From a virus, in IMG/VR virus record IMGVR_UViG_3300035698_022738, positions 32,852-96,851 of that record: DNA of 64,000 bases; one strand, written 5' to 3'. The notes below the pieces were generated by a model that had not been told where the DNA came from, made no database searches, and saw only the letters and a list, made by a program, of their open reading frames with translations. The translations under genes and the position numbers were made by a program. This document shows positions 5,611 to 64,000 of the stretch, piece by piece (positions within the stretch are counted from its first letter, which is position 1; each line of letters opens with the position of its first letter).

Positions 5611-5623
5611 ATTGTTATAGCTC

Positions 5624-5669
5624 AAAAACTGCCTCGTTTTCGTTCTATGATACGAGGCAGTTTTTTTTT
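5624..5669 (+). terminator. Intrinsic (probably bidirectional) terminator
   Basis: aaaaactgcctcgt ... acgaggcagttttttttt perfect stem followed by a U-tract. Confidence 0.85.
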
Positions 5670-9656: not shown

Positions 9657-9848
9657 TACCATTGAGTTGGATAGCAGCTTTCGATGTCTTCAGCGGCTGC
9701 ATCCCTTCCTCTTGCGGGGGACGGGGTACTGACAACATACCCTGTCCCTCGCTTTGATTCAGGGACAGCCCCAGAGAGACAATCTCCTGCGTTATATATC
9801 TAAGATGGGGGAAATTTCGATGAAACTTTACAGGAAAGGGGTCGTAAA

Positions 9849-10190
9849 ATGACGAAAAAATTTGATGCACGGATTCAAGGGGAACGAAAAACGATGTCAG
9901 TCAGAGAGTTCCGTAAGCTGGGTTTTCTGCAAGAGGTCAACCGCCAAATTCTGCACCCCATTGGTCTGGCTCTTGAGGTCAGGCTGTTGGAGGATGGGAC
10001 AGAGGAATTTGGCAGGATTTGGGACAGTCGGGATGACCCGGAAGGGTTTGCCTATGTGGATGGCCCCGATCAAGAAAAAGCCATCCCCTATTTGGAGCAT
10101 TGGGTACAACATGCTCGGGCTCGGGTTAAGAGATTTGGCTGGCTCATTCAGCCTGTCGGAGAAAAGATTGAGGTAAAGGATGAGGGATGA
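9849..10190 (+). CDS. Conserved hypothetical phage protein
   Basis: EFRKLGFLQEVNRQILHPIGLALEV...IWDSRDDPEG pattern; preceded by the phage promoter motif. Confidence 0.65.
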   Translation: MTKKFDARIQGERKTMSVREFRKLGFLQEVNRQILHPIGLALEVRLLEDGTEEFGRIWDSRDDPEGFAYVDGPDQEKAIPYLEHWVQHARARVKRFGWLIQPVGEKIEVKDEG

Positions 10191-10397
10191 CATGTTTCCA
10201 GGGATCGATCCCTTGATTGGTGGGGATTCTGCTTTGTACAGAAGCCACATTGCCTCAGCGATAGATATTCCTGAGTACAAATCCTATCTCTATTTGACTG
10301 AGTCTTGTTGGGTGCCATCCACAAAGACAATGCCCAACCGATGGATAAGGTTCTGGCACAAAGTCTTTTTTGGGTTCCGGTGGGAGGCACCAAAAGA

Positions 10398-11330
10398 ATG
10401 ATCGAAAGTTGGCTCGAACAGAACTTTGATACATTGCTGGCACGGGACGGGCAAGAGATCAGGATCAATTGCCCGTTTTGTGCTGGGGGTGATACGGATC
10501 ACCACTTGTATGTCAATGTCTATGACGCCCCTGTGGCTCATTGCTTCAAGTGTGAATGGAGAGGCAATCATTATCAGTTGCTCATGCAATGCGGGATGTT
10601 TGAGACAGCTCGTGATGTATTTGATGTCTTGGAGGGTAGAGGTACTCCAGACGTTGGAGAGTTTTCTTCTTTGGCAGATAGACTGTCTCTAACGGATAAG
10701 TTGCTTGATACCCCGCAGGACCTTGAGATGCCTGACTGGTTTGTACCCTTCAAGTATGGTGGGAAGTTGGATACTCATGCGGGTATGGTTTTTCGGTACG
10801 CTTGTAACAGAATGGACCTGTCTGACATCCTTGCTTATGGAGTTGGCTATTGCAAAGACACAACGCATCCGGCAGCTTTCAGGTTGATCCTACCTGTCGA
10901 AAGAGGGTTCTGGCAAGGCCGCTCGATATCATCTAATTCAAGGGCAAAGTATCTATCTACAAGCAGTCCCAAAGGGGATGTATTGTTCAATGCTGGTGCT
11001 TTGGATAGTCAGGGGACATTGTACATAGCTGAGGGCATACTGAGTGCTATTGCCCTTGGACCAAAAGCTCTTGCAATCCTGGGTAAGAGAGCGACACGAG
11101 GTCAGATAAAGAGGATGTTGGCACGAGCTCAGGCCCGAGAGGTCATCATAGCTTTGGATGCCGGGGAAGCATACAGTCCTGGGACAATCGAGTTGGCAAA
11201 GGCTTTTGCCAATATCGGGGCTCAAGTCAAAATCAGGAATTATGCTTTTGGGGACCCTGACAATTACACGGAATACACAGACATACCATTTACAGATCGG
11301 TATGAGATTGAGGCGGCACTGTCTTTTTAG
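10398..11330 (+). CDS. DNA primase (Zn finger + TOPRIM)
   Basis: CPFC...HCFKC zinc finger; YIAEGILSA and IALDA TOPRIM motifs. Confidence 0.9.
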   Translation: MIESWLEQNFDTLLARDGQEIRINCPFCAGGDTDHHLYVNVYDAPVAHCFKCEWRGNHYQLLMQCGMFETARDVFDVLEGRGTPDVGEFSSLADRLSLTDKLLDTPQDLEMPDWFVPFKYGGKLDTHAGMVFRYACNRMDLSDILAYGVGYCKDTTHPAAFRLILPVERGFWQGRSISSNSRAKYLSTSSPKGDVLFNAGALDSQGTLYIAEGILSAIALGPKALAILGKRATRGQIKRMLARAQAREVIIALDAGEAYSPGTIELAKAFANIGAQVKIRNYAFGDPDNYTEYTDIPFTDRYEIEAALSF

Positions 11331-11331
11331 A

Positions 11332-11365
11332 TGCCACACTTTTGTGGTGTGCGACGTTATATATA
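11332..11365 (+). promoter_or_regulatory. Phage-type promoter (TGCCACAC...CGTTATAT)
   Basis: Same sequence and spacing as the site at 15188-15220. Confidence 0.6.
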
Positions 11366-11626
11366 GTGCAGCTGGCTAAGTCAGCTGTCTCCTATGCGAG
11401 AGGCGATCCTTGATTGTATGGGGTCGCCTCTCTGCTAAAATGAGAGGTGCAAGATAAAAATAAAAGTGAGTGGAAAAGTGTACGAGGTGTCATACACTAG
11501 CAAGGGAGTATGCCTCGATTGTGGTAGTCATACCACTGTGTACCATACAGTGGATACCAAGTCTTTTCGAGACTGCGATTGCTCTGATGCTCGTAATGTA
11601 ATTGAGATGGAAAGTGAGAGGCAAGT

Positions 11627-11824: not shown

Positions 11825-12180
11825 AACGTGTCTTGATAGTTGTGTTGTCGTTGGTGCTGTTGTTGGGATTTGTGATGGCCTGCGGTGGGACTGAAGATAC
11901 CGGGGGTGCTCAGTTGAGCAAGCCGTGTGAGCCGACAATGCTTGCTGGTCGTGGAGATGATATTGTAGATGTATCCGGCGTAGAGGGCTGCACCCGTGTT
12001 GTGTATACCCACAAAGGTGAGTCAAATTTCATTGTCAAACCGTATGATTCCAGCAACGAGCTGATGTCTGGCTTTATCAACGAGGTCGGGGACTACGCTG
12101 GCACAAGCAAATGGAACCAGAGAACTGCGTCCCTTGAGATAACAGCCGACGGGAGCTGGACAATCAATATCAGCAAGTAA
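11821..12180 (+). CDS. Lipoprotein
   Basis: Signal peptide with lipobox VMAC; GRGDDIV..HKGESNFIV..LEITADGSWTI beta domain. Confidence 0.75.
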   Translation: MKRVLIVVLSLVLLLGFVMACGGTEDTGGAQLSKPCEPTMLAGRGDDIVDVSGVEGCTRVVYTHKGESNFIVKPYDSSNELMSGFINEVGDYAGTSKWNQRTASLEITADGSWTINISK

Positions 12181-12233
12181 CCAAATCATACTGAGCTGGT
12201 GCTCTAAGTGCCAGCTCAGTGTAAGGAGAAATT

Positions 12234-12776
12234 ATGATGGCTAAGGTTATTCCATTTCCAAAAGGCAAATATGATATAATTCTTGCTGACCCTCCATGGA
12301 ATGAGACAGGCGGGGATCGCCTCCGACGTGGTGCAGATAGACACTACGACCTGATGAAAACAAAGGATATAGCATGTCTCCCTGTGTCGGAGATATCTGC
12401 TGACAACGCCCACCTGTACTTATGGGTAACAAACAACTTCTTGCACGACGGCTTGCATGTGATGCAAGCATGGGGTTTCGATTACAAGACAGCAGTGACA
12501 TGGGTGAAGGACAGATTTGGTCTTGGTCAATACTTCCGAGGTCAACCTGAGCATTGTTTGTTTGGTGTACGTGGGATGCTCCCTTACAAAGTTGTTGACG
12601 GGAAAAGGCAACAGGGTGTGACTGTAATCAATGCACCACGAGGGGAGCACAGCAAAAAGCCAGAAGAGTTGCGGACAATGATTGAAAAGGTGTCTGACCG
12701 CGATGGATACAAAAAGATTGAGTTGTTTGCGAGAAATAAAGTTGCTGGTTGGGATTCGTGGGGCCTGGAAGTCTGA
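12234..12776 (+). CDS. MT-A70 family adenine methyltransferase
   Basis: IILADPPW, LYLWVTN, WGFDYKT, EHCLFG, HSKKP and IELFAR. Confidence 0.92.
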   Translation: MMAKVIPFPKGKYDIILADPPWNETGGDRLRRGADRHYDLMKTKDIACLPVSEISADNAHLYLWVTNNFLHDGLHVMQAWGFDYKTAVTWVKDRFGLGQYFRGQPEHCLFGVRGMLPYKVVDGKRQQGVTVINAPRGEHSKKPEELRTMIEKVSDRDGYKKIELFARNKVAGWDSWGLEV

Positions 12777-12805
12777 TTGTTGCATAACTGAGAGGAACTC
12801 AAAAC

Positions 12806-12943
12806 ATGGGAAGAGACAAAAAGGATTACGGAATGGGGCGGATCGGCCTGAGAACTTGCTTTGCTTATTTCCTGATGCTGTCGATAATGGTGGTGGCTAT
12901 CGGGATTACATTTTACTGCATGATCAAAGTTTTTGGAGGATAG
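12806..12943 (+). CDS. 45-aa single-pass membrane protein, copy 1
   Basis: MGRDKKDYGMGRIGLRTCFAYFLMLSIMVVAIGITFYCMIKVFGG; GAGGA SD; duplicated at 14436. Confidence 0.65.
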   Translation: MGRDKKDYGMGRIGLRTCFAYFLMLSIMVVAIGITFYCMIKVFGG

Positions 12944-13079
12944 TCCGGTTGGTTCTTTGGTCCTCATATTTCACGAGAGGACTCGGGGACTTTACGGCCC
13001 GGAATTGTAATTATATTAAAGCATATTCTCTTCAATTCGTCTCACCTCTAAAGAGGGTGGGTTTCCAGGAGGTTTTAAT

Positions 13080-13769
13080 ATGATAGGGATGGGTGTGAAC
13101 TTATGGACAAAGAGTGGTGCGGGTGCTCCTGCTCCTGACCTTTGGTGGAATTTAGATGGAACCATCGTAGATCCGCAGGTAGCTTATCAGCCAAAGGGGG
13201 CATTATCATATGCAGCCAGCAAGCTTAATTTACCAGACCCTGGAACGAATGACGCCAGCGAAGGGACGGCACCAACCTGGGATAGTGTGAACGGTTGGAC
13301 ATTTGATGGTATTAACGATTTTCTACGTACTGGTGCGGTGCCAACTGTCTCAACTGGTTCTATGATTGTGCAATACGCTAATAATCCCATAGGTTCTATC
13401 GCCGATGGGCCTTGTGGTTGTCTTGCTTCGCCGTTGACGCAGGATAGATTCTATTTTTATATAGACGGCACCAGCAACCTAACACTCTACGGCAATGGCA
13501 AATATTCTGCTGGTACTTGGATGGCTGGTGGAAATATAGCAATAGCCGGATTGAAGGGGTATAAGAATGGAGCGTTTGATGTAAATATTGCAGCTGGTGG
13601 CGAAGCGACACATACAACTGTAGCCGTCGGTTGTTTACATTCTGTCTATGCTCCACCTGATGATTGGGTAAATTTTTTTGATGGAAACATTATTGCATTT
13701 GCCCTCTATGATTACACTCTGACGGGACCAAACGTGACAGCACTGGCAGCGAGAATGGCAGCGATCTAA
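13080..13769 (+). CDS. Head spike/fibre-like protein with lectin (ConA/LamG-like) domain
   Basis: N-terminal MIGMGVNL resembles head-fibre anchors; GWTFDGINDFL...FFDGNIIAFALYDYTL is a LamG-like pattern. Confidence 0.5.
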   Translation: MIGMGVNLWTKSGAGAPAPDLWWNLDGTIVDPQVAYQPKGALSYAASKLNLPDPGTNDASEGTAPTWDSVNGWTFDGINDFLRTGAVPTVSTGSMIVQYANNPIGSIADGPCGCLASPLTQDRFYFYIDGTSNLTLYGNGKYSAGTWMAGGNIAIAGLKGYKNGAFDVNIAAGGEATHTTVAVGCLHSVYAPPDDWVNFFDGNIIAFALYDYTLTGPNVTALAARMAAI

Positions 13770-13973
13770 CGGAGGAAACAATGATGGATTCAAAAACGCA
13801 TGTGGTCGTAATATTCCCAGACAAAACTCTGACATCGAAAGAAGTGACGTCTGTATATTGGTGGATGAAACAGTGTCTAATTGATGTGTTCCATTCACAA
13901 TTTTCCTCAAACCCCGATAGTCTGACCAACGATGTCAATCCAGGTGTCCATGATGCTGTGATGGGAGGATGAA

Positions 13974-14402
13974 ATGGGCTGGTGGGGATATATCGTACTA
14001 ACAAAGTCGGACAGCATCACTCAGAAGGATTGGGAAGATAAAGTCATTCCTGAACTCTGTAAGAAGTGGAATACAGCACCAAAGTCAGAGAACTGGGCGG
14101 CCAGATTATGGCCCCCAAGATTCTCGCATGATAAAACTAAGTGTATTATTGAGTCAACCTTTGATGAGAGAGATTTGGATACACAAGATTTAACACGCTT
14201 GCCAAAGTACATGGCTGATGCACTAAATGCCGAAGAATCTGTGACAACAGTAGAGATATGCAAGGACGCACTGACTGACAAAGTGACCTGCTTTGATCTG
14301 GGTCATGAGTGGTCAATGAGTGGAGACGCATGCCGGGAATACATTGCAAAAAACAACGCAGAATGGGAAAGGCCACTAGAGTTTGAAGTGTTGGATAAGT
14401 GA
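13974..14402 (+). CDS. Hypothetical protein in repeat-flanked cassette
   Basis: ORF coupled to 13781-13972 with SD. Confidence 0.55.
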   Translation: MGWWGYIVLTKSDSITQKDWEDKVIPELCKKWNTAPKSENWAARLWPPRFSHDKTKCIIESTFDERDLDTQDLTRLPKYMADALNAEESVTTVEICKDALTDKVTCFDLGHEWSMSGDACREYIAKNNAEWERPLEFEVLDK

Positions 14403-44668: not shown

Positions 44669-46174
44669 ATGGCACCAAAAAAGCCAAAAGTTTATAGTGT
44701 GCAGCCACGGTACAAAAGAGGTGGGGTTCCCCGAGGCTGGTATGTCATTGATGCGATCACTCGTTTGGGGGAAGACTTGCCAGCCTATGGATCCGTGCAT
44801 CGGGATTCCTATCTGTCAACTCAGTGGATGAATGAGCCTCTGCTGGCAGGGGTTTTTAGTACCTGGGTGGAACGAGTTCAAACTGTCAACTGGAAAATCA
44901 CTGGGGGACGGAACACAGCCAACTACTATGCCAACTTATTGAACGAGGCGGATGGGGGGTTGGGCTGGTCGTATCATGAGGGCATGTGTGCGATTGATTA
45001 TCTGTCAACAGACAAAGGTGGTTTTGAGGAGTTGGGTCGATCCAAAGCCAGGTCAACCACAGGCCGGGTCATGGGTATTCAGCATATCGACTCGGTGCGC
45101 CTGGTCATGATCGGTGAGGTTGGACAGCGTTGGAGATATTTCCCGGAAGTTGGTCGGGGGGGTGAGCCTTTCAATATTCCGGACGCAAATATTATCCAGT
45201 TGGTAAGCTTGCCCTCTGGCAGGGAGCATTATGCCGGGAATGGTGTTTGTGCACTGTCCAGGCTGGTCGAGTCCAAGACCTTAATGTTGGGCTACTTGGT
45301 CTACTTCCGGCAAGAGATTGGCAACCTTCCGCCAGAACTGGTAGCTATCATCAATGGCCTACCACAGACTGTTGTAGAGGACAGTCTGAAAAAATACCGC
45401 ATGGAATTGAAAAAGAAAAACCTGGACACCTATGGCAGGGTGTGGTGGTTGGGTTCTGATGACGAAGCAGTTCCGGTGACGTTGGACATCAAGAGTCTGA
45501 CGGTCCCCAACAAGTCGTTTGATTATAGAGTCATGACTGAGTGGTGGGCTAAGCTGCTGGCATTGAACACTGGGGAAGATGTTGGGGAATATTGGCTCAT
45601 TCAGCACTCTGGCAGCACCAAAGCAGTTCAAAGCGTGCAGGCCATGAAGTCCAGGGGCAAGGGTACAGCCAAATATTTGCAGGAAAAAGAACGGCTCTAC
45701 AACTTTAGGGTTCTACCGTATGGTGTTGTTTTCCAGTATGACAATAAGGATGATGATCAGGATAGGGCGGTAGCTGAGATTCTGTCTCAAAAGGTATCTA
45801 CACTCTACCAGCTGGCCTCTGTGGGAGTCGAGCAACAGGATTTTGCTTACACAATCGAAGAAATCCGGAGGTTGGCGGTTGAATGGGAAATCGTGCCTTC
45901 CGAGTTTGGGGCGGAAGAGGTCCCGAGGTTGGTTGGATCGGCCTACAAACATTTGGTAGACGAAGACACTTATGTAGTGGATCGCTCCATGAAGATGTAC
46001 AAAGTCAATCCAGTTCTGAGAGGGCGCGAGGGTCGGGAGGCAGAGCATATCTACCATGCTTTCCAGGACCTGGTGTCTGGTAAGAATAGGGAAAGTGCTA
46101 TGCAGCATAAGGCAGATGGGTTGGAGGGTGGAAATGGAGTCCAAAAGGTCACAGAGAGCCAAGTCGTATCCTAA
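44669..46174 (+). CDS. Portal protein
   Basis: 501 aa shortly after TerL; portal-like pattern (DYL..DKGGFEEL, HIDS, YTIEEIRRL). Confidence 0.7.
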   Translation: MAPKKPKVYSVQPRYKRGGVPRGWYVIDAITRLGEDLPAYGSVHRDSYLSTQWMNEPLLAGVFSTWVERVQTVNWKITGGRNTANYYANLLNEADGGLGWSYHEGMCAIDYLSTDKGGFEELGRSKARSTTGRVMGIQHIDSVRLVMIGEVGQRWRYFPEVGRGGEPFNIPDANIIQLVSLPSGREHYAGNGVCALSRLVESKTLMLGYLVYFRQEIGNLPPELVAIINGLPQTVVEDSLKKYRMELKKKNLDTYGRVWWLGSDDEAVPVTLDIKSLTVPNKSFDYRVMTEWWAKLLALNTGEDVGEYWLIQHSGSTKAVQSVQAMKSRGKGTAKYLQEKERLYNFRVLPYGVVFQYDNKDDDQDRAVAEILSQKVSTLYQLASVGVEQQDFAYTIEEIRRLAVEWEIVPSEFGAEEVPRLVGSAYKHLVDEDTYVVDRSMKMYKVNPVLRGREGREAEHIYHAFQDLVSGKNRESAMQHKADGLEGGNGVQKVTESQVVS

Positions 46175-47885
46175 TCCTGGTCATGAGGGTTTGGATGAAA
46201 AATGGGGGGGCTCGAAACCACGTAGCTCTGGGGATGAGTCCAGTTCTGCCTCTGTGGATGGAGAGGATCGTAAAGTCTCGGTAGCTGACCTGGCTGACAG
46301 GGATAGTGAGGTCAACAAGCTCGGAAGAGAAAATTGGGACGATCTGTCTGATGCAGAGAGAATGTCTCTGATGGACCCAGATGCTATCGACATGTCGATG
46401 CAAGATGAGCTTGATCGGTATCGACAGCCCTACAGCTCCCAGGTTAAATTCCAGGGGAAAAAGCTGACCTCGAAGGGCATTGAGGATATTGGGAAAAACG
46501 CAGATGCTTACATAGAATCTCTCGATGACGCCTTGACTCCAATCACTCGTGAAAAATTGAACAAGTTTGTCCACGATTTCTATCTTCCCGCTGTGGATGC
46601 CTCTGTCTCGGACGGGTCGTTGGAGTTGACAGACAAAGAGATGGATGTGATCATGCGGGGTAACATTGACAAGCTTGTCTTCCAAGAGATTGAATCAAGG
46701 AAAAGACAGATGGGTGATCATGGTATCCGACATGTTGTTGGCAATATTGAAAGATCATTCCAAATGATAGATGAGTTGGAGTCGGTGCCGTCGTTGGACC
46801 GTCTCATGGTTGCTCAGGCTATGGTGGATCATGATATCGGTTTGACAGCTGGTGTTGCGACTCAATCCTTTACAGCAACCAATTATCACCCTCAGTATTC
46901 TGAAAAATTTGTAAGGGCACAAGACTATCCAAACAGGCTTTTTCCTGGGCAAGAGGATAGATTGTACGATATGGTTTTGACTCACTCCGATCCTGACATG
47001 GATTGGGAGGGTGAGCCAGCTAGATCAGCTTTGAGGGTATCCGACAACACAGCTCTTTTTCAAGAGGATAAACTCCCAACTCTTTTTGTTGAGATTCCAG
47101 GAGCAACCACTGAGTTGTACAGGTTGCAGCTGGCAAAGCAAGCCGGGATGGAACAGGATTATTTGCCAGAGACAAAAAGAAGGTTGAAAGAGTTGGTTGG
47201 TGAGTCGGACTTTGACCCACGGATCAAAGCGGAATTGGTCTCAGCAGCTGATGAGGTGTTTTTTCTGACACCTAAATTCAATCTTGGTATGTTGGCAGGT
47301 GAGGTGTCTGAGTTTGATTATGATCCAGAAGCGGTTCGGATGGATATTTACCTTACTTCCACCCCAGAGCGTGAGCCATTGAATGGGATATTTGACATGG
47401 GTGAGCGTCAGTTCGAGAAATTTATGAAATCTTACGATTCTGAGGGGAGTCCAGATGAGGGTTTGCTGTTGCGGGAAAGGAACTCAGGGGACGCCGTGCT
47501 CAGCTTTACATACAATGAGAGCGAGGCTGGTACTTCCCAGGAGCTGAGTAACTTGAACGCCATGAGTATTCGGCCTGTTCTGTCGGCAATGGAACGTCAA
47601 CTGGGGCCGTCTCCAACGCCGGAGCGTAGGCAGGCTGTTTGGGATGAGTTTTCACCAGAGGTATCAAGACGGTTAACAGATTCAGAGATTGGGGCTATGA
47701 AGGCTCTCTATGGTGAGGGGGTTAATTTGACTGGTTTCCCGCTCACTAAGAGGGAGAGAACTTTCATGCAGTTGGAAAGCTTGAAGAGTCTGAAGATACT
47801 CGTTAATCTAATGGAAGGAAACCCAGGTCACGCCGACAATTTGCTGCGTTCCTACTTTGGGCGTAGCACAATAAGAGGTATGTGA
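46134..47885 (+). CDS. HD-domain phosphohydrolase-like protein with N-terminal NPGH..GGS tag
   Basis: DHGIRH...DHDIG...HPQYS...THS...RVSD HD-superfamily motif order; GGAGG SD. Confidence 0.7.
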   Translation: MESKRSQRAKSYPNPGHEGLDEKWGGSKPRSSGDESSSASVDGEDRKVSVADLADRDSEVNKLGRENWDDLSDAERMSLMDPDAIDMSMQDELDRYRQPYSSQVKFQGKKLTSKGIEDIGKNADAYIESLDDALTPITREKLNKFVHDFYLPAVDASVSDGSLELTDKEMDVIMRGNIDKLVFQEIESRKRQMGDHGIRHVVGNIERSFQMIDELESVPSLDRLMVAQAMVDHDIGLTAGVATQSFTATNYHPQYSEKFVRAQDYPNRLFPGQEDRLYDMVLTHSDPDMDWEGEPARSALRVSDNTALFQEDKLPTLFVEIPGATTELYRLQLAKQAGMEQDYLPETKRRLKELVGESDFDPRIKAELVSAADEVFFLTPKFNLGMLAGEVSEFDYDPEAVRMDIYLTSTPEREPLNGIFDMGERQFEKFMKSYDSEGSPDEGLLLRERNSGDAVLSFTYNESEAGTSQELSNLNAMSIRPVLSAMERQLGPSPTPERRQAVWDEFSPEVSRRLTDSEIGAMKALYGEGVNLTGFPLTKRERTFMQLESLKSLKILVNLMEGNPGHADNLLRSYFGRSTIRGM

Positions 47886-47916: not shown

Positions 47917-48117
47917 ATGGCTGAGAGAAAAAGGATCGTGTTGGATGCCAGTCCGGAAGAGGCAGACTGGATCAAGACCATAGTTGGGCCGGATGGAAAG
48001 ACTGCAAGGGAGCGCGATTTGGAGGCGCATGATGAGGCGTCTCGGATGCATGCTGAAGAGGTAGGTCTCTCCGAGTTGGCTGAAGTTCTGGAGGAGTCCG
48101 ATGAGCCATCTGATTGA
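47917..48117 (+). CDS. Small acidic protein (possible immunity partner)
   Basis: Has its own phage-type promoter motif at 47865-47895; follows the HD gene. Confidence 0.5.
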   Translation: MAERKRIVLDASPEEADWIKTIVGPDGKTARERDLEAHDEASRMHAEEVGLSELAEVLEESDEPSD

Positions 48118-48640
48118 TTTGATTGAGAGCGCAAAGGTTCTGGTCAAGGAAAAACATCTCCCTGGTCAGCATAATCAAGATGATCATGGAAACTGGGCGG
48201 ATGGGGGTGAGAGTGGGATGCTTGGCCCTCGGGGTTCTAAAGCAGAGGCCCAAAAGATCAGACACCTGTTAGATTTGTTGGAAAAGGAGAAGGGGTTCTC
48301 AATTGATGTTGTTGGTTGGAAGCCCCCGGTCTCTGGGAGCATGGTCTCGATTTACCCAGATCGAGAGAAGCAGATTGTTGACCTTGGAAAGTCCAGTTTT
48401 GAAGAGCAGCAGGACTTGATTGGTGATTACGTTGCCGATAACTCTGATTTGTTGGAATTGCCCGATCACTATTTGGGTGGGTGGTTGGAAAAGGGAGTTG
48501 TATTTTTGGATGTGTCGGTCAATATCGCCAGCCAAGAGAAGGCAATGAAATTGGGGATTGAGCATAACCAGTATGCAATCTTTGATGTTAAATCCTGTAC
48601 TGTAATCAAAACCGGGTATGAGGGTGCCAGAGAGGAATGA
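48101..48640 (+). CDS. KHLPGQH-tagged protein with conserved phage domain (GGW..LDVS..Q.AIFD)
   Basis: Tag at 48152-48199 followed by a ~130-aa globular domain. Confidence 0.7.
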   Translation: MSHLIDLIESAKVLVKEKHLPGQHNQDDHGNWADGGESGMLGPRGSKAEAQKIRHLLDLLEKEKGFSIDVVGWKPPVSGSMVSIYPDREKQIVDLGKSSFEEQQDLIGDYVADNSDLLELPDHYLGGWLEKGVVFLDVSVNIASQEKAMKLGIEHNQYAIFDVKSCTVIKTGYEGAREE

Positions 48641-56216: not shown

Positions 56217-59200
56217 ATGAGGCTTTCAATTCTTTCATGCGGTTCAATCGTTGTAGATGGATCAAATGGCAACAGCAGGTTGCTATTTGGAGTCCCCGAT
56301 GGTGTCATTCATTCCCTCAAAGAGAGTGGCATGGATCACCCGACCATGGCGTTCACTACTTCCATGAGAGCCCCAGGTGTCGGGTCGATGGAACAAGCTA
56401 TCCCCATTTTTCGAGAGAGCCCTTACAGCAACGGAGAGCTCAGTGCATCCCTCATAAGACACAAACATGGCAGCGACTATTGTATTGAAGCTGACGGCGC
56501 AAAGCTCCTTTTCTCCGAGAGGGGCGATGTCTCAGTTTTGGATACCGCGAATTATGACCTGGCAATCATCAAAAACAAACATAGAGCTGACGCCCTGGGT
56601 GAGCACGTTATCACATGGCCCTGGCCGGATAGCGAGGTATCAATCGTGGATCACGACGTTCATTTTAGTTCCACGGAAAAGGTTTGGGGAAGGCTATCAG
56701 AGGTCCCCAGCAATTTGAAAAAAGTAGACGGCAAACCCTTGACTCTTTCCCAGGCCAATTGGCTGGCAAGTGCAGCGGATAGCATTGAAGCTGACGGAGA
56801 TGCCAAAGAGCCGTGGGCAATCGCCATGTCTCAATTCAAAAAAACCTTTGAGAAAACAGAGGATGGTTGGCAGAGAACCGAGTGCCTAACCGGACAGAGA
56901 GATAAGGAAACCGTCGGAACTGAAGCTGACTTGCAAGAGACAAACGTAGAGAGTGAAGGAACCTACGAGACAGAGCAATTTGGAAAAGTCTCAGTTGACA
57001 ACGTGCGCCGGGTAGAGATGGGAACCAAGCGCGGTATGACTGAAGCTAAGATTTTCTCAAGAGACGGTAGAACAACCACGACTCTTGTTGGAGGCGAAGC
57101 TGAGAATTTCCTGGACTGGTGGAACCAAAACAAACCAGAAGGACCCCAGAGTTCAAGAACCAATACCCTGCCGCCAGCCCCTACCGTAGTTTCGTCTCAA
57201 CCAAGCCCGTCTCAAAAGGGAGTCAGGCCAAAACCCCTAAGAAAAGCGGTTGCTGATTCTCAGGGAGCCCAGCAACTTGAAACAAAGCCAGAGAGTGAAG
57301 TTGGTGTTGAAGATGAAACAACGCCGCAAGAGGAGCCAGAGCAAATGAAAAAGGATCCAAAAGACAAATCAGAAGAGGCCCTGGCAGAAATGGCAGACGA
57401 AGAGGAACCTGATTTCAAAAAGGATTCCAAACCAGATCAATCAAATGAAGCTGACACAAAGCCCTCAGACGAAGAGAAGCCTGTAAATGACACAGAAGAA
57501 AATCAAGATCAATCAGTGGATAACACCGAAGAGAAGCCAACAGAATCAAATGAAGCTGATGAACCTCAGCCAAAGAAGTCAGCTAAGCCTACTGAGAGGC
57601 CCTCAGACGAAGAGAAGCCTAATCCTGAAGGGAATTCCTCTGAAGAGGATCAAGAGAATGAAGCTGACAGAGAGCCTAATCCCAAAGAGGATAAGAACAG
57701 CAATCAATCAGGCAAACCAAAAGTCCCGGCTTATCTTACAGAGGGAGAGACACCTGAAGCGCAACCACTACCAAAAGATACAGATGAGGACCCAGATCAG
57801 TCAAAGGGAAAGAAGTCCCCTGAGAATGAAGCTGACACAAAGGCAGATAGTGAGCCAGAGGATGAAGACATAGCAGATAGAGATCAAGAGAAAAAGGATC
57901 AATCAGAAGAAGAGGATTCAAGTAAGAAAAAACCCACAAAGAAAAAAGCAAAGGAACTACAGGCTAAGGAAAGACTAGAGAGAGCCTGGGTAGACAGAGA
58001 CTTTGAAAGCATTGAAGCTGAGAGAGTAGCAGAGAAGGCAGTAAGGGAAGTACAGGAAACAGTAGGGGAAAGCATTGGAGCTGAGAACGTAGGGGAAGTA
58101 CAGAGAGTAGGGAAGGCAGAAGGAGTCACGGAGCAGGGAACAGAGAGAACAGAAGAGAACACGGAGCATGGAACAGAGAGAGTAGGGAAAACAGAAGGAA
58201 AAGAAGAGAAAACAGAAGGAATCACGGAGCATGTAAAAATCAAAACAGAAGAGAACACGGAGCATGTAAAAATCAAAACAGAAGAATCCCGCCCCGCAGG
58301 GCGTGTGCAAAAATTCACAAACGCCAATCCGGAACACATCGCTCAAAAAGAGGGGCTCCAGGCTACAATGGATCGCTTTGCAGCCACCCTCCGGCAACAG
58401 TTCTGGGCCTCCGACATTGAAGCTGACACCGTTGACTGCTCTGGCACTTACAGGCCCTGGCTGGTAGAGTTGGAGCCTGGTCTGGCCTACGTGGAATTGA
58501 ATGGGGGCTACTTTGCGGTCCCCTACACAATAGAGGGATCAAAGAGAGAAGATATCAAGTTTGCTCCCAGAGAGCTTTGGTTGGATGCCGCCAGAACGTG
58601 GGGCATTGAAGCTGATGAGGCCCAGATCGACGCACTTTTGACATTCTACGCGCCCACAGGTGAGATACCTAAAATGGGCGCAGTGATGCTTGGAAAAGGT
58701 GAAATAACCAAAAACAAGGCAGGCCTGACTGCTACAGACTACCTGGCAGTTGAAGACCCAGACAAGCCTGCCACCTGGAGGCTGCCTGTGGCCGTTAAAC
58801 ACGGGCAACCAAGCCCTAGACTAATGAAGGCGGCTGCGGACGCTCTAGCAGCCCCAGGGGGCTTCAGGGGCAAATCCTATGAAGGTCCTAAAGCAGAGGG
58901 AGCACGAAAGAAGCTCCTGGCAATCTACAACAAGCTTGAGTTGGACGCGCCGGGGAGCCTGGCCCAGTTCAAGAGTATTTGGGAGAACGCTCCCAGTTAT
59001 GAAGACTGGCAGGCAAGCAAAAAGGGCTTTTCAGACATTGAAGCTCCCAGTTATCTTGAATGGGGAGCTGAGCATGGGGACCTCATGGCCCTGGCATTCT
59101 ACCCAGACCTCATGGACGTGAGTCGCACGCTTGAAGAAAAAACGGTAAAAGAATGGACAGAAGAAGGCCCCGAGAGACGTTTGGGAGACGTGCTAACCTC

Positions 59201-60557
59201 AAGTATCCACAAGGCGTTTACCACTGAAGCTGACAACCTATACGGAGAGGGCTTTATGAATGAAGAGGAGAGGATCGCCCTCAGTTCCGCCATAGGCGAT
59301 ATGTTAGGGCTATTTAGGGAAAAGGCAGACAAAAAAGTGCTAGAGAGGCCGCTCATGACCACGACCAAGATTCCATTGAAGTTGAAAGAATATTGCCCAC
59401 AGGCCCCAGATGAAATAGAGGGTATTTGGACTTCAGTTTGGAAAGAAGACGGTAAGTGGAAATGGGCAGCGATTACAGCTGTTTCCATGTGGGATCGCCA
59501 GGGTGAGTTTTTGACCCACAAAGCGATTGACTGGGCTTTGGCTATGTCAAAAGTAATTGGCCCTGGCCCATTGCGATATAAGCATATTCCCGGCCTGGAC
59601 GGAGGAGATTGTGACCGTCAAATTAGAGTCGGGGATTATCTGTTTGAAGCTGGGACATTCCGTGACAGCCCCATAGGACTGGCTATGAGGACTAAAATGC
59701 AGAGTGACCCTACATGGCAAATATCGCCCGGACTGGCCTTCAGAGCTAGTGACCTACAGAGAGGGGTGTATCAGAGAGCCTCGATATTTGAAAGGTCGAT
59801 TACACAATCCCCAGCTATTCCGGCGACAGCCATCCTATCTATCACGCAAGGAAATGAGGACATTGAAATGGCCGTTAAGGAGTTGGATCAGAACGCTATT
59901 CAAGCGGTTGCAAAAGAGCTTGGCCTGGACGTAGGCTACGTGGAAGAGCTCCACAAACGCAGCCTGGCAGGCACGGGTGATCCTCTAGGATTGTCTGAAT
60001 TCAAGGAGTTTGTGGCCTATAAGGCAGGTAAGAAGGCAGACCCGCCAGCAGCCATACCCCCTGAAGAAGAGGACATGGAAGAGGACGAAGATGAAGAGGA
60101 TACCAAAAAGAAGCCCTCCAAGGAGAGTGAATTCTCCAAGGTAGTAGGCTCCATGAAGAGCGTGGCCCCGAAGCTCACACGCGCACAACGTGAGCAGTTG
60201 GCTAACGTGCTTGACCCACGGCATACAGCTACCAAGCACGAAGAGGACGGAGACCTGGCAGAAATCAAGCAAGTGCTCAAGCAGCAGGCAGCTGTGATGG
60301 GCAGCCTGGTATCAGCCGTATCCGACCTCCAAGAGGTAGCAGGGACGCAGGCAGGCCTACCACGCAGCCAGGCCGCACAATTCATGGTAGCCGCCAAAGA
60401 GGACGCACCGGCAACGCAAGCAACCGACCAAGAAATCCTCGCAAAGCTGGATCAAATCCAGCAGGCCGTAAAGGCCGTCGAGGCTAATCCCCTGGCAGCA
60501 GGGGGTAACGTGTACGAATTGTTTACCAGCGACAAGCTGAACCAGCGTGGGGCGTAG
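56217..60557 (+). CDS. Giant prohead protease/scaffold fusion protein
   Basis: Immediately upstream of the capsid gene; protease-like DRQGE..L.YKH..G...ISPG...ERS..PA region; ChaB-like segment; long acidic low-complexity tract; helical scaffold-like C-terminus. Confidence 0.65.
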   Translation: MRLSILSCGSIVVDGSNGNSRLLFGVPDGVIHSLKESGMDHPTMAFTTSMRAPGVGSMEQAIPIFRESPYSNGELSASLIRHKHGSDYCIEADGAKLLFSERGDVSVLDTANYDLAIIKNKHRADALGEHVITWPWPDSEVSIVDHDVHFSSTEKVWGRLSEVPSNLKKVDGKPLTLSQANWLASAADSIEADGDAKEPWAIAMSQFKKTFEKTEDGWQRTECLTGQRDKETVGTEADLQETNVESEGTYETEQFGKVSVDNVRRVEMGTKRGMTEAKIFSRDGRTTTTLVGGEAENFLDWWNQNKPEGPQSSRTNTLPPAPTVVSSQPSPSQKGVRPKPLRKAVADSQGAQQLETKPESEVGVEDETTPQEEPEQMKKDPKDKSEEALAEMADEEEPDFKKDSKPDQSNEADTKPSDEEKPVNDTEENQDQSVDNTEEKPTESNEADEPQPKKSAKPTERPSDEEKPNPEGNSSEEDQENEADREPNPKEDKNSNQSGKPKVPAYLTEGETPEAQPLPKDTDEDPDQSKGKKSPENEADTKADSEPEDEDIADRDQEKKDQSEEEDSSKKKPTKKKAKELQAKERLERAWVDRDFESIEAERVAEKAVREVQETVGESIGAENVGEVQRVGKAEGVTEQGTERTEENTEHGTERVGKTEGKEEKTEGITEHVKIKTEENTEHVKIKTEESRPAGRVQKFTNANPEHIAQKEGLQATMDRFAATLRQQFWASDIEADTVDCSGTYRPWLVELEPGLAYVELNGGYFAVPYTIEGSKREDIKFAPRELWLDAARTWGIEADEAQIDALLTFYAPTGEIPKMGAVMLGKGEITKNKAGLTATDYLAVEDPDKPATWRLPVAVKHGQPSPRLMKAAADALAAPGGFRGKSYEGPKAEGARKKLLAIYNKLELDAPGSLAQFKSIWENAPSYEDWQASKKGFSDIEAPSYLEWGAEHGDLMALAFYPDLMDVSRTLEEKTVKEWTEEGPERRLGDVLTSSIHKAFTTEADNLYGEGFMNEEERIALSSAIGDMLGLFREKADKKVLERPLMTTTKIPLKLKEYCPQAPDEIEGIWTSVWKEDGKWKWAAITAVSMWDRQGEFLTHKAIDWALAMSKVIGPGPLRYKHIPGLDGGDCDRQIRVGDYLFEAGTFRDSPIGLAMRTKMQSDPTWQISPGLAFRASDLQRGVYQRASIFERSITQSPAIPATAILSITQGNEDIEMAVKELDQNAIQAVAKELGLDVGYVEELHKRSLAGTGDPLGLSEFKEFVAYKAGKKADPPAAIPPEEEDMEEDEDEEDTKKKPSKESEFSKVVGSMKSVAPKLTRAQREQLANVLDPRHTATKHEEDGDLAEIKQVLKQQAAVMGSLVSAVSDLQEVAGTQAGLPRSQAAQFMVAAKEDAPATQATDQEILAKLDQIQQAVKAVEANPLAAGGNVYELFTSDKLNQRGA
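56486..59233 (+). repeat. Dispersed TGAAGCTGA motif array (11 exact copies)
   Basis: Copies at 56486, 56786, 56921, 57446, 57551, 57659, 57827, 58013, 58418, 58607 and 59225. Confidence 0.9.
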
Positions 60558-60873: not shown

Positions 60874-62403
60874 ATGCCTGGACAGGGTTTTAACAGTAAT
60901 CCGATGGTAGACAGTTCGTTCATTCAGTTCATGAAACAGTTCATTGCTGAGTCAGAAGGCAGTGATCCGTTTGCGACTACCATCCCCAACGATCCGGCTC
61001 GGACCATGACCTGGACTGAGTACCAGAAATTGCGAGACCTGGGTCGCCTGAAAGAAGTCAGAATCAAAGAATCGGCCTTGACCCCCACGGGCAATACACT
61101 CTACGGGACAGGTGGACTCTTCGGCCTTTGTGGTCCTGATGACATAATCGGCCTGGTCATGCAGGATGACCCGCTGGTACCGTGGATTGGCTTTGAGCCT
61201 GATACGGCCCAGGAGAAGTTCGTCAAGATGTGGACCTACATGGATGTCTCAGGGACAGCGGCTGGCTCAATTGGCACCACTGTCTACGGGGATGCCTGTG
61301 ATGATCCTCCAACTTCTGAGAAGGGTGTTTGTGAAGTGTACCAGGGCGACTTTGGTACCTTGCGTGCCTGCGGTGAGGCAGTGAAGGTTGCTGACTTGGC
61401 TTTGCGGAAATGCGACAAACAACCGACTTACACCGTGCCGCTCGAAGGCGTCGGCAAAGTCCGGATTGACAACGATCTCGATCTGGAAACAATTGCAGCC
61501 GCCCAGGTAGTCAAGCACGAAGTCAGTCGTGAGTTGATCACAGGCGACAAGAACACCACCGGCCAGTTCGACGGCCTGACCAATCTGGTCAAGAGTGGCT
61601 GGGCTTCCATCAATGGAGATCGCTGCTACGGCATGGACTCCGTTATTCAGGATTGGGAGAACGACACTCTGACTGGCGCGGTCAACGGCCACGGCTCGAT
61701 CATCGGCAAGGTCAGAGACATCTGGCGACGTATCAAATGGCGGATTCAACAGACTGGCATGGGGCTTCCGAGTGAGGGTGATGTTGTTCTTATGATGCCC
61801 TCGTGGATGGCCTGGCAGTTCTTGGATGAGTGGGCGTGGTGGACAATCCGCACAGGAGCTCAGTACAATGAGGTCTTCCGTGATAACTACGCAATGCGCG
61901 AATTCCGAGAAAAGCATGCCAATGGACGCTTTGGTGGTGGATACATTACCATCGACGGGTTCAACATCCATATCATGCCGCATGACTGGATGGCAGTTGA
62001 CCAGACTGCTCCCTACTTCTGCTCTGACATCTACCTTTTGGTAAGAGGATTTGGTGGAAGACGAGTGATGCAGGGTCAGTTCGTTCCAGCAGATGTCGGT
62101 TCAAGTGCTGTAGCAGATGTGGCTGGTTACAGGTACTTCAATGTCGAGAGTATGCAGAGTGGTCGTGCATTGCGCTGGACAAAGTTTGACAATGCCTGTG
62201 TCAGTCCTTGTTTGCTGATCCGACCTCGTTTGTTCATGGAATGTCCATGGGCTCAGGGAAAAATCGAGAACGTGTGTGTAAGCACCCAGTTCGATCCTCA
62301 AACTCTTGATCCTCAGTCGGACTACTTCATCGAGCAGAATCCAGTAGTCTCGACACACCATACTCAATACTGGTACGAAGAGGGTTCTGGCTGGTTCCAT
62401 TGA
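60874..62403 (+). CDS. Major capsid protein
   Basis: 509 aa after the protease; LITGD...QFDGL and SDIYLL are HK97-fold-like patterns; strong SD and terminator. Confidence 0.8.
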   Translation: MPGQGFNSNPMVDSSFIQFMKQFIAESEGSDPFATTIPNDPARTMTWTEYQKLRDLGRLKEVRIKESALTPTGNTLYGTGGLFGLCGPDDIIGLVMQDDPLVPWIGFEPDTAQEKFVKMWTYMDVSGTAAGSIGTTVYGDACDDPPTSEKGVCEVYQGDFGTLRACGEAVKVADLALRKCDKQPTYTVPLEGVGKVRIDNDLDLETIAAAQVVKHEVSRELITGDKNTTGQFDGLTNLVKSGWASINGDRCYGMDSVIQDWENDTLTGAVNGHGSIIGKVRDIWRRIKWRIQQTGMGLPSEGDVVLMMPSWMAWQFLDEWAWWTIRTGAQYNEVFRDNYAMREFREKHANGRFGGGYITIDGFNIHIMPHDWMAVDQTAPYFCSDIYLLVRGFGGRRVMQGQFVPADVGSSAVADVAGYRYFNVESMQSGRALRWTKFDNACVSPCLLIRPRLFMECPWAQGKIENVCVSTQFDPQTLDPQSDYFIEQNPVVSTHHTQYWYEEGSGWFH

Positions 62404-62437: not shown

Positions 62438-62472
62438 GAGGGGGATGGGGAGTAAATCCCCTCCCCCTTTTC
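62438..62472 (+). terminator. Intrinsic terminator after capsid gene
   Basis: agggggatgggg/cccctccccct stem followed by a T-run. Confidence 0.75.
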
Positions 62473-62516
62473 TTACAGATTTTAGGGGTATTCTCTGAGT
62501 TTTGACGGGGTTTTCT

Positions 62517-64000
62517 ATGATTGCTACTACTTTACATAAGAGTTCTGCGCTAAAACACCTGCCTGGTCAGCACGAACAGATTTCACACGGGAATTGGGCG
62601 GAGGGAAGTGCGAGTAAATACATCACAAACGCAGATTCAATGGATGACGCCCTCCGTCAAAAGGATGTATTGTGGAATCCAAACCCAGATGGACCGGGAG
62701 TGTATATAAATCCTCCCTCGATTGAATCCTTGCTCAACAAACCAATGGAAAGAGGTGTATTATCGAGCAAAGGAAAGACAGTCAAGGACTACTTGAGAGA
62801 TTTCCTGCCGTTGAAGATCATCTATGATCCAGTCACTAATTCAATAATTGCTCCAACCTCCGGTGAGCAGACCACTCATTATGACGTTGCTGCGGGTGTA
62901 GTTGGACACACCCCAGGACGTGTGCTTGATGTAGAGGACAATGAGACGTATGCAGCAATAGTCGGTCTTGTGTCTGAGTTGGAAGACAGGTCTGTGAGAT
63001 TGGTCCTGACAGGGAACTCAGCTGGAACTCCTGATTTCATCCAAGTCAACATTGAGTCAGCTGGAGCTGTGGGCGACAAGGATAAGGCCCTCAAGAATAT
63101 CTATGAGGCACTGGACAAGATGTCAGAGTTGGGTCTTCCAAATGACCTGGAAGTTGAAATAGAGGATAGGTCTGGAGATACAATCCAGACTTCCATCAAA
63201 CATCTCCCAGGCCAGCATGAGCAAGAATCTCATGGAAACTGGGCCTCTGGAACAATAGAGCACCCCTCCTCAGAGCTGCCAATTCAGTCTGAAGTGAGTG
63301 ATGCCGCCAGAAAAGCTTTGACAACCGTTGCTGACAACATCCGAGACAAGGAATGGGAAGAGTTCTACTCTATTGATCCTGAGACAGGGCGCAATCGGTA
63401 CAATGCTATCGGAACAAGGCTCAGCTGTAACATTGGGCAGGACCTTCTATCATTTGAAGGCACCCTTGCGATTCACAACCACCCGCTGGGCAGCTACACG
63501 TTTTCAGCTGATGACCTCTTGGTGTTTGCAAAAGCGGGAGTAGCCGAAGGAATCGTCGTAGGCCGGGACTACTTTGGGAATGAGGTTTTTGCCAGCATCG
63601 CGCCCAGTGATGGTGATATAGCATCGTGGCCTGACCCGTATCGGCTTATGGAGAAGTATCAAGACCTCAATCATTCTATTCATTCTGAGCTTGAAAGAGA
63701 GTTGAAAGGAAAGGGGTACTCTTTCCCCGAGATCAGGGGTGCTGTTGCAGACGAATCAGCAAGACAGGTGGCCGACTATTTTGGTCTGAGTTACGTGTCA
63801 CATGGATTTCCAGATTTGGATGCCATGAGAAGTAGGGGTCCGGCCTCCAACGAAGGACAAGAATACTTTGATAAGATGGCAGAGTCCAGAGATGCGTACC
63901 TTGCCCGAAGACCAGAAATCACAGCTGAGCTGCAAGAGGCCCGTCAAGCACTATTACAAAACAAATACAGCGTTATCAAACATCTTCCAGGCCAGCATGA
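62517..64000 (+). CDS. Modular polyprotein-like protein with repeated KHLPGQHxQxSHGNWA tags; module 2 is JAB/MPN-like (3' truncated by window)
   Basis: Manually translated open frame from ATG 62517 to the window end; tags at 62553, 63198 and 63978; module 2 has E...IHNHP..TFSADD. Confidence 0.85.
   Translation, partial: MIATTLHKSSALKHLPGQHEQISHGNWAEGSASKYITNADSMDDALRQKDVLWNPNPDGPGVYINPPSIESLLNKPMERGVLSSKGKTVKDYLRDFLPLKIIYDPVTNSIIAPTSGEQTTHYDVAAGVVGHTPGRVLDVEDNETYAAIVGLVSELEDRSVRLVLTGNSAGTPDFIQVNIESAGAVGDKDKALKNIYEALDKMSELGLPNDLEVEIEDRSGDTIQTSIKHLPGQHEQESHGNWASGTIEHPSSELPIQSEVSDAARKALTTVADNIRDKEWEEFYSIDPETGRNRYNAIGTRLSCNIGQDLLSFEGTLAIHNHPLGSYTFSADDLLVFAKAGVAEGIVVGRDYFGNEVFASIAPSDGDIASWPDPYRLMEKYQDLNHSIHSELERELKGKGYSFPEIRGAVADESARQVADYFGLSYVSHGFPDLDAMRSRGPASNEGQEYFDKMAESRDAYLARRPEITAELQEARQALLQNKYSVIKHLPGQH

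What the first reader, a model, noticed from the sequence alone, without database searches (positions are those of the whole stretch)
62517..64000. Tag-delimited cargo polyprotein: KHLPGQHxQxxHGNWA as a candidate capsid-loading/processing signal
Seen in sequence: an ORF absent from the supplied track starts right after the major capsid gene. It carries the same His-rich peptide three times in frame: KHLPGQHEQISHGNWA (62553), KHLPGQHEQESHGNWA (63198) and KHLPGQH.. (63978, cut by the window). The segments between tags (215 and 260 aa) are unrelated to each other; the second has a JAB/MPN metalloenzyme signature (E...HNHP...FSxDD). The same tag heads a separate gene 14 kb away (48152, KHLPGQHNQDDHGNWA), with partly different synonymous codons, so the peptide rather than the DNA is conserved. 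Inference: the tag is a portable address label that binds the prohead interior and/or is cut by the prohead protease (e.g. K/H), releasing a swappable set of enzymes packaged in the virion and injected. This is analogous to the T4 capsid-targeting sequence and MuF toxins, but built as a polyprotein.
Basis: partly seen in the sequence, partly recalled or inferred. Interest (0 to 1): 0.9.

Follow-up and report, generated by a model that had tools for sequence, protein, structure and literature searches.

The report
His-rich header tag on phage cargo
A conserved, disordered 16-residue histidine-rich peptide stands in front of every enzyme module of the giant multi-enzyme proteins this salt-lake phage encodes beside its capsid gene, and of over a thousand similar proteins in uncultured phages; it is probably an undescribed signal for loading and/or cutting apart proteins carried in the phage head, though neither step has been shown.

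Summary
KHLPGQHxQxxHGNWA occurs in frame at 48152, 62553, 63198 and 63978, against none in 100 shuffles. The 96.8-kb contig holds 14 copies.

The ORF cut by the window end very probably continues at the contig start: a 14-nt in-frame overlap gives 2,023 aa with 7 tags.

The peptide, not the DNA, is conserved. AlphaFold2 models the tags as disordered between folded modules.

Modules in this phage are five paralogs of an unknown "domain X", two RadC/JAB-like domains, two DRAT-like ADP-ribosyltransferases and four others.

A tag profile finds 1,447 protein clusters, all unnamed metagenome proteins. Genuine copies are absent from 185,579 prokaryotic genomes.

In relatives the tag precedes the known polyvalent-protein effector set, follows MuF or portal domains, and lies in head-gene modules. 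All 10 near-complete tag-bearing genomes encode an S78, XkdF-type (S78_2) or Mu-like prohead protease.

So this is a phage polyvalent effector array (a known kind) with an undescribed cassette header.

Loading into the head and cleavage there remain inferences. This scan found the same tag earlier in at least three other genomes.

The parts
62517..64000 (+). 5' part of the tag-delimited cargo polyprotein ORF. It is 3'-open at the window and contig end and probably continues at contig base 1, giving 2,023 aa with 7 tags.
   Evidence: Logan contigs run 21-57 nt beyond 64000
62553..62600 (+). Tag copy 1 (KHLPGQHEQISHGNWA), 12 aa after the ATG
   Evidence: pLDDT below 50 in the AlphaFold2 model
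62601..63197 (+). Module 1: 'domain X', an unknown alpha/beta fold with four paralogs at the contig start
   Evidence: model pLDDT 80-95; no convincing PDB match
63198..63245 (+). Tag copy 2 (KHLPGQHEQESHGNWA)
   Evidence: predicted disordered
63246..63977 (+). Module 2: RadC/JAB(MPN)-like domain with a complete JAMM motif
   Evidence: no Pfam hit
63978..64000 (+). Tag copy 3, cut by the window end. The 14-nt overlap with the contig start completes it in frame as KHLPGQHDQISHGNWA.
48101..48640 (+). Stand-alone tagged gene: a 16-aa leader, the tag at 48152-48199, then a 146-aa module that also exists untagged elsewhere
60874..62403 (+). Probable major capsid protein (SU10-like)
   Evidence: lead only; 21% identity to a gene next to a protease homolog in L063
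59412..59858 (+). Probable HK97-type (S78-like) prohead protease domain inside the 1446-aa protein (56217-60557). His and Ser are invariant in three homologs.
   Evidence: Pfam does not detect it
62438..62475 (+). G+C-rich hairpin followed by a T run between the capsid gene and the polyprotein ORF (terminator-like)

Best explanation
The ORF is the start of a phage-type polyvalent effector polyprotein. It is a string of autonomous enzyme modules that the phage most likely carries in its head and delivers with its DNA. Each module is a cassette opened by one conserved, intrinsically disordered linear motif: hydrophobic-x-K-H-L-x-G-x-H-[DNE]-Q-x-x-H-G-x-W-A, often followed by a Gly-rich spacer. 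The motif is most likely the signal by which the head-assembly machinery recognises these cassettes. It would address them to the prohead and/or provide the site where the polyprotein is cut into units of about 25-50 kDa, most plausibly by the S78-type prohead protease near the hydrophobic-x-K|H boundary. N-terminal copies would then act like the T4 capsid-targeting propeptide. Shown here: the motif, its disorder, its portability, its selection at peptide level, its effector repertoire and its head-module context. Inferred: packaging, loading, cleavage and the enzyme that cuts.
For: There are 14 in-frame copies with none in shuffles, and they are conserved at the peptide level. The tags are disordered between confidently folded modules. 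The profile search finds 1,447 clusters, with 2-10 tags in most of the best 150, a median spacing of 249 aa, and a first tag within 60 aa of the N-terminus in 81 of 145 proteins. Modules after the tag carry the polyvalent-protein repertoire. Segments before the first tag are MuF in 9 of 74 cases and portal in 4 of 74, where targeting is already supplied, so release is the obvious need. The commonest neighbouring families are MuF (81 of 118 contigs), Mu-type portal, capsid, S78 protease and terminase. All 10 tag-bearing genomes that are at least 90% complete have an S78, S78_2 or Mu-like prohead protease, and this phage has an S78-like domain just upstream of its capsid gene. A hydrophobic residue at -3 with a fixed residue at -1 matches the P3/P1 pattern of assemblin-fold proteases (T4 L/I-x-E, herpesvirus V/L-x-A|S; my own knowledge). 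Tag subtype co-varies with protease family: W-A after H-G in S78_2 phages, G-G in S78 phages.
Against: No proteomic, structural or biochemical datum shows packaging, binding or cleavage. The invariant part is about 12 residues on the would-be prime side, which is far more than assemblin-type proteases usually read. The capsid protein and scaffold of this phage carry no tag-like site, unlike T4 and phiKZ, where cargo and shell share one cleavage motif. The same core occurs with S78, XkdF-type, Mu-like and, in one record, ClpP-type proteases, so the core probably does not serve the protease active site. Position -1 is F in about 10% of copies. The co-variation with protease family is confounded by relatedness. 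No Pfam MuF domain is detectable in this contig.
Confidence: 0.55

Rival explanations
1. The tag is a pure docking label and is not cleaved. It binds a conserved head component (capsid interior, scaffold, MuF or portal) much as an encapsulin cargo-loading peptide does. Repeated copies give multivalent retention, and the polyprotein stays intact.
For: A 12-residue invariant core is typical of a binding motif rather than a protease site. The tag is disordered. Many tags are N-terminal on single-module proteins, where cutting would remove only 12-20 residues. MuF is the most frequent neighbour.
Against: The core is invariant across phages whose capsid, portal and protease are only 21-37% identical or belong to different families, which is hard to match with one binding surface. 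Tags also sit after MuF and portal domains that already anchor the protein. A 2,000-aa intact polyprotein would have to pass through the tail.
Confidence: 0.2
2. The tags are inter-effector processing sites cut by a metallopeptidase module of the array itself (zincin HExxH or JAB), in the head or after injection, in the manner of MARTX toxins.
For: HExxH is 5.6-fold enriched in tagged modules over untagged ORFs. Nine of 10 arrays with at least 4 tags hold a zincin- or JAMM-motif module, and this phage has two JAMM modules. Iyer et al. predicted autoprocessing of polyvalent proteins by their zincin domains.
Against: Only 29 of 113 tag-bearing contigs show such a module in the DNA examined. RadC-type JAB domains are argued to act on nucleic acids rather than peptides. 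Two unrelated peptidase folds would have to read the same invariant core.
Confidence: 0.12
3. The core has an intrinsic chemical role. It forms a His3/Asp metal site (Zn, Ni or Cu) that condenses the cargo, helps unfolding and ejection, or acts only once inside the host. It is not a signal for head assembly.
For: H, H-D and H are invariant at i, i+5/6 and i+10, together with Q and two G, whatever the capsid or protease lineage. The segment is disordered on its own.
Against: No known metal-binding motif or solved structure matches it. This reading does not explain the strict position at module boundaries or the conserved residues at -3 and -1.
Confidence: 0.08
4. The tag has no signal function. 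It is a conserved linker copied along with modules by duplication and recombination.
For: Two copies share 47 identical nucleotides, and five modules are paralogs.
Against: Synonymous differences outnumber non-synonymous ones. The same core heads at least 59 unrelated module clusters in more than 100 contigs and 1,447 protein clusters. Paralogous modules are only 27-37% identical while their tags stay about 85% identical.
Confidence: 0.05

Closest known systems
Phage-type polyvalent proteins (Iyer, Burroughs, Anand, de Souza, Aravind 2017, PMC5512222)
   Same: Giant proteins with many unrelated effector domains (ARTs, RadC-JAB, zincins, ddrB-ParB, MuF and portal fusions), encoded with portal, terminase and head genes and predicted to be packaged and injected.
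   Different: The paper's main text describes no conserved inter-domain peptide. Here every cassette opens with one invariant disordered motif. Most modules of this phage match no LPD or other Pfam family.
T4 capsid-targeting sequence of internal proteins IPI-III and Alt, removed by the gp21 prohead protease
   Same: A short N-terminal peptide on head-internal, injected proteins (including an ART), which is portable to foreign proteins. A hydrophobic-x-residue pattern precedes the presumed cut.
   Different: The sequence is unrelated. The T4 signal is used once per protein, not between modules, and its cleavage motif is shared with shell proteins. Neither targeting nor cleavage is shown for the present tag.
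MuF polymorphic toxins (Jamet et al. 2017, PMC5576092)
   Same: A head-associated anchor followed by variable toxin or effector domains. In relatives the tag sits directly after MuF domains.
   Different: Those proteins come from temperate phages and prophages, carry one toxin per protein, and have no junction motif in the paper's text. Here there is no Pfam MuF in the contig, the tag is absent from cellular genomes, and one protein holds many modules.
MARTX toxins and encapsulin cargo-loading peptides (analogies only)
   Same: MARTX toxins are effector arrays cut at inter-effector sites by a built-in protease. Encapsulin cargo carries a short disordered peptide that addresses it to the interior of an HK97-fold shell.
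   Different: There is no sequence or family relationship, and both mechanisms are untested here.

Membership tests
Phage-type polyvalent proteins | One polypeptide with several unrelated, autonomous domains | tested here: met
   Domain X, RadC/JAB-like, DRAT-like ART and unknown modules lie in one frame. Two modules fold independently.
Phage-type polyvalent proteins | Hallmark effector domains (ART, RadC-JAB, zincin, ddrB-ParB, MuF or portal fusion) | tested here: met
   This phage has a DRAT-like ART (29.2 bits against a cut-off of 25) and a JAMM motif. Relatives have ART-PolyVal, ddrB-ParB, SprT, ATLF, MuF and portal.
Phage-type polyvalent proteins | Encoded with portal, terminase and head genes | tested here: met
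   Terminase matches phrog_9, with a capsid lead and a protease lead. Neighbourhoods of 118 contigs agree.
Phage-type polyvalent proteins | Packaged in the virion and delivered to the host | not testable with these tools
   This needs virion proteomics.
T4-type capsid-targeting sequence | Short N-terminal peptide on head-internal proteins | tested here: inconclusive
   All five tagged genes of this phage have a tag within about 12-40 aa of the start, but the tag is also internal.
T4-type capsid-targeting sequence | Removed by the prohead protease at its general cleavage motif, which shell proteins share | tested here: not met
   No tag-like site occurs outside the cargo genes. Cleavage itself cannot be tested here.
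MuF polymorphic toxins | N-terminal MuF domain (PF04233) | tested here: not met
   No match in this contig at E <= 1 or in the ORF. MuF is present in 9 of 74 pre-tag segments of relatives.
MuF polymorphic toxins | Encoded by temperate phages or prophages | tested here: not met
   One pattern match in 185,579 prokaryotic genomes, and it looks like chance.
JAB/MPN (RadC-like) for module 2 | JAMM motif E...HxHx7SxxD | tested here: met
   E38, H77, H79, S87 and D90 are invariant in five homologs.
JAB/MPN (RadC-like) for module 2 | JAB/MPN fold | tested here: inconclusive
   Nearly all top Foldseek rows are JAB/MPN domains (BRCC36, Prp8 Jab1, PfJAMM1, RadC 2qlc), with probability up to 0.97, but E >= 0.005 and TM about 0.3.
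JAB/MPN (RadC-like) for module 2 | Match to a curated family model | tested here: not met
   No Pfam family at E <= 0.01 and no NCBIfam family.

The most novel reading that the evidence does not exclude
The invariant core H-L-x-G-x-H-D-Q-x-x-H-G is a self-sufficient, lineage-independent cargo module, possibly a metal-dependent docking or self-processing element. It would work with any HK97-type head regardless of capsid or protease family. That would make it a general 'zip code' by which tailed phages load arbitrary proteins into capsids and release them as separate units, and one that could be transplanted to package proteins of choice.
Probability: 0.15. Interest if true: 0.85.

Novelty: new variant of a known kind. 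Interest (0 to 1): 0.62.

Why it matters
How tailed phages choose, load and release the proteins they inject is known for only a few model phages, such as T4, P1 and the phiKZ-like phages. Here a single short motif marks the cargo cassettes of more than a thousand protein families. That turns the question into simple experiments: tag-reporter packaging, N-terminomics of virions and mutagenesis of a dozen residues. The motif also gives a sequence handle for cataloguing injected anti-host effectors in metagenomes, most of which match no known family. If the tag is portable in practice, it could be used to load chosen proteins into phage heads.

Tried and rejected
- The complex prediction of the tag peptide (A3) with the S78-like protease domain (A5) returned 'no answer' (score 0.01 against a mark of 0.32). 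It counts neither for nor against binding.
- tblastn of the ORF and of the bare tag against 50,697 GenBank phages found nothing.
- The word-indexed protein search with the 499-aa ORF found nothing.
- PDB sequence searches with module 2, module 7, the domain X profile and the tag profile found nothing useful.
- Foldseek and VIA-align gave no convincing fold for domain X; the best was Z 4.8 to a Stay-Green protein.
- Laid Logan contigs run past base 64000, but their letters are not shown.
- No RNA holder was listed among the sequencing runs.
- jackhmmer and phmmer with this phage's protease region against pre- and post-tag segments gave no hits.
- The single match in a prokaryotic genome (L129) looks like chance in a spurious frame.
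- Three ideas were considered and dropped. A 2A-like ribosome skip fails because the P before G is not conserved. Ni-dependent (S/T)-x-H hydrolysis fails because this phage's tags read I/E-S-H. K-Q isopeptide cross-linking to the shell has no support and is incompatible with ejection.

Full report
**Observation**

The degenerate DNA pattern for K-H-L-P-G-Q-H matches the window four times, at 48152, 62553, 63198 and 63978, all on the + strand. None of 100 shuffles gave a match. The last three lie in one frame of an ORF that starts at TTG 62502 or, more likely, ATG 62517 (preceded by GGGG). This ORF runs off the window end.

The window is the last 64 kb of a 96,851-nt IMG/VR contig. Across the whole contig there are 14 copies, counting a KHLPGRH variant and an ..HESWA variant. 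Ten of them lie in the first 10.5 kb.

The last 14 nt of the contig equal its first 14 nt, inside a tag and in frame. Joining them gives a 2,023-aa ORF with 7 tags. Independent Logan contigs from salt-lake metagenomes extend 21 and 57 nt past base 64000. Even without the join, the ORF at the contig start is a 1,528-aa polyprotein with five tags.

**Selection on the peptide**

Invariant residues use mixed synonymous codons: Leu has four, Gly three, Ala four. Over all pairs of 13 copies there are 484 synonymous and 193 non-synonymous codon differences. Mean identity is 77% at the nucleotide level and 85% at the amino-acid level. The flanking modules, where paralogous, are only 27-37% identical.

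**Anatomy in this phage**

| Gene | Coordinates | Layout |
|---|---|---|
| Polyprotein A | window 62517 to contig 4584 | tag-X, tag-RadC/JAB, tag-X, tag-ART, tag-X, tag-X, tag-M7 (456 aa, unknown) |
| Gene B | contig 4587-6869 | tag-X, tag-ART |
| Gene C | contig 7590-8450 | tag-RadC/JAB |
| Gene D | contig 9727-11394 | two tagged modules |
| Gene E | window 48101-48640 | one tagged module |

- "X" is an unknown domain of about 200 aa, present in five paralogs.
- The ART modules match Pfam DRAT, one of them above the curated cut-off.
- The JAB call rests on an invariant E...HNHP-x6-S-x-x-D motif. It is also supported by a confident model (pLDDT 80) whose top PDB neighbours are nearly all JAB/MPN domains, although with weak scores.
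- Tagged genes take up about 12% of the contig.
- In every tagged gene the first tag lies about 12-40 residues from the start. These leaders resemble the residues before internal tags (...TTL-KHL...).

**The tag is a disordered linear motif**

In an AlphaFold2 model of leader-tag-X-tag, domain X is confident (pLDDT 80-95, pTM 0.70). Both tags have pLDDT below 50 and no secondary structure. The residues just before the second tag form the last strand of domain X. No Pfam, NCBIfam or PDB entry covers the tag. Only PHROG 2859, of unknown function, touches it.

**Distribution**

Many hold 3-11 copies.
- A 32-column profile of 140 natural copies (A3) finds 1,447 cluster representatives among 1.84 billion proteins at E <= 0.001, and 290 at E <= 1e-10. 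Proteins carry up to 10 clear copies.
- Among the best 150 hits the median spacing is 249 aa, and the first tag lies within 60 aa of the N-terminus in 81 of 145 proteins.
- The consensus is [VIL]-x-K-H-L-x-G-[QRK]-H-[DN]-Q-x-[TS]-H-G, then W-A or G-G and a Gly-rich stretch.
- The ten top hits looked up are all unnamed metagenome proteins.
- The strict pattern gives one match in 185,579 prokaryotic species genomes, and that match looks like chance. GenBank phages give none.
- The tag therefore belongs to uncultured, apparently non-integrating phages.

**What the tag joins**

The 201 modules that follow a tag fall into 59 BLAST clusters. Representatives match ADPrib_exo_Tox, ART-PolyVal, DRAT, Zeta_toxin, SprT-like, ATLF and M90 zincins, ddrB-ParB, topoisomerase IB, NUDIX, GNAT and others. 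This is the repertoire of phage-type polyvalent proteins (PMC5512222).

Segments before the first tag are MuF in 9 of 74 cases and portal in 4. Others are an XkdF protease, ARTs, NUDIX and Acb1.

Homologous modules appear as stand-alone tagged genes, at different positions in polyproteins, and untagged. So tag plus module is a shuffled cassette.

**Genomic context**

Among 118 contigs, the untagged families that most often neighbour the tags are:

- MuF, in 81 contigs
- Mu-type portal, in 27
- HK97-type capsid, in 12
- E-type capsid, in 11
- Peptidase_S78, in 10
- terminase, in 10

Relatives of this phage place the array right after the portal (L028, L052) or upstream of the protease and capsid genes (L063).

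In this phage the array follows a probable SU10-like capsid gene. That gene in turn follows a 1446-aa protein whose residues 1066-1214 look like an S78 prohead protease: atlas score 0.95 with 26 of 30 neighbours, and invariant His and Ser in three homologs. Pfam misses both of these genes, and it finds no MuF in the contig.

**Mechanism: what was tested**

I asked whether the tag goes with one protease family, using 31 tag-bearing records of at least 30 kb.

| Protease family | Records of 31 | Records at least 90% complete (of 10) |
|---|---|---|
| S78 | 7 | 3 |
| XkdF-type S78_2 | 13 | 6 |
| Mu-like protease | 1 | 1 |
| ClpP-type | 2 (one dubious) | 0 |

All 10 near-complete records have one of the first three families.

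Tag flanks differ between the groups. S78_2 phages have V/L at -3 and W-A after H-G. S78 phages have no preference at -3 and G-G after H-G. The core is identical in all of them, including the ClpP-type and Mu-like records.

These results fit a two-part reading. The boundary residues (hydrophobic-x-K|H, resembling the P3/P1 preference of assemblin-fold proteases; my own knowledge) would serve cleavage. The invariant core would serve something common to all these phages, such as loading, retention or metal binding. Relatedness among the records confounds the result, so it remains only a hint.

A rival cutter is an array-encoded metallopeptidase. HExxH is 5.6-fold enriched in tagged modules, and 9 of 10 arrays with at least 4 tags contain a zincin- or JAMM-motif module. 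The one complex prediction allowed (tag with protease domain) returned no verdict, so it is not used as evidence.

**Comparison with what is known**

The protein class is the phage-type polyvalent protein of Iyer et al. 2017. The first three defining features tested here are met; virion packaging cannot be tested with these tools.

It works like, but is not a member of, three other systems:

- the T4 capsid-targeting sequence, which has a different sequence, is used once per protein, and shares its cleavage motif with shell proteins;
- the MuF polymorphic toxins, since there is no Pfam MuF here and the phages are not temperate;
- MARTX-type effector arrays.

Neither Iyer et al. nor Jamet et al. 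mentions a junction motif in the main text. Full-text searches for the motif strings and for cargo-targeting terms found nothing relevant.

Earlier notes of this scan report the same tag in at least three other genomes, and analogous but different header tags in further phages. I reached the same reading independently. To it I add the protease-family survey, the tag-subtype co-variation, the predicted disorder, the peptidase-module enrichment and the absence from cellular genomes.

**Verdict**

This is a new variant, an undescribed cassette header, of a known kind, the polyvalent effector protein.

Noticed in passing
window 62601-63197; L009:40-759, 1894-2502, 2551-3165, 4752-5357: An unknown 'domain X' of about 200 aa occurs in five paralogs (27-37% identity). 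Its AlphaFold2 fold is confident but has no convincing PDB match. It always sits directly upstream of another module (X-RadC, X-ART, X-X-M7, X-ART), which suggests an adaptor or partner role. It also occurs in other tagged polyproteins (P0128, P0105, P0112 and others).
   Followed up: partly
window 56217-60557: This 1446-aa protein combines an N-terminal domain, an acidic low-complexity stretch of about 600 aa, an S78-like protease domain (residues 1066-1214) and a scaffold-like tail. Pfam and PHROGs recognise none of it.
   Followed up: partly
window 62438-62475: A strong G+C-rich hairpin with a T run lies between the capsid gene stop and the polyprotein start. It may attenuate transcription, so that the cargo is made at a lower level than the capsid protein.
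   Followed up: no
window 46056-47885: The 609-aa gene after the putative portal has homologs that are tag-delimited modules in other phages (L028, L098, L051, L126). Its own N-terminus carries a tag-like ...NPGHEG..KWGG stretch, which may be a degenerate or second tag type.
   Followed up: partly
Pfam finds no MuF here or anywhere in the contig, although a ...CGGNCRH... stretch recalls the MuF C-terminal motif (my own recollection).
   Followed up: partly
L009:1846-1893 and L009:10480-10527: Two tag copies in different genes share a 47-nt identical stretch, while other pairs differ at synonymous sites. This suggests recent gene conversion or cassette transfer.
   Followed up: no
contig ends (window 63987-64000 and L009:1-14): A 14-nt terminal overlap inside a tag suggests a circular or circularly permuted genome. 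It could also mean that further unresolved cassettes lie between the ends. CheckV's 53% completeness estimate may be too low.
   Followed up: partly
L009:8470-9426 and 11941-13980: Glycosyltransferase genes are interleaved with and follow the cargo genes.
   Followed up: no
P0078 (7,059 aa): A metagenome protein with 20 weak tag-like stretches and at least ten repeats of the ART-like module.
   Followed up: no
loci: Tag subtype tracks the prohead-protease family of the phage...HG-[NS]-W-A with XkdF-type proteases...HG-R-G-G with S78. Relatedness confounds this.
   Followed up: partly
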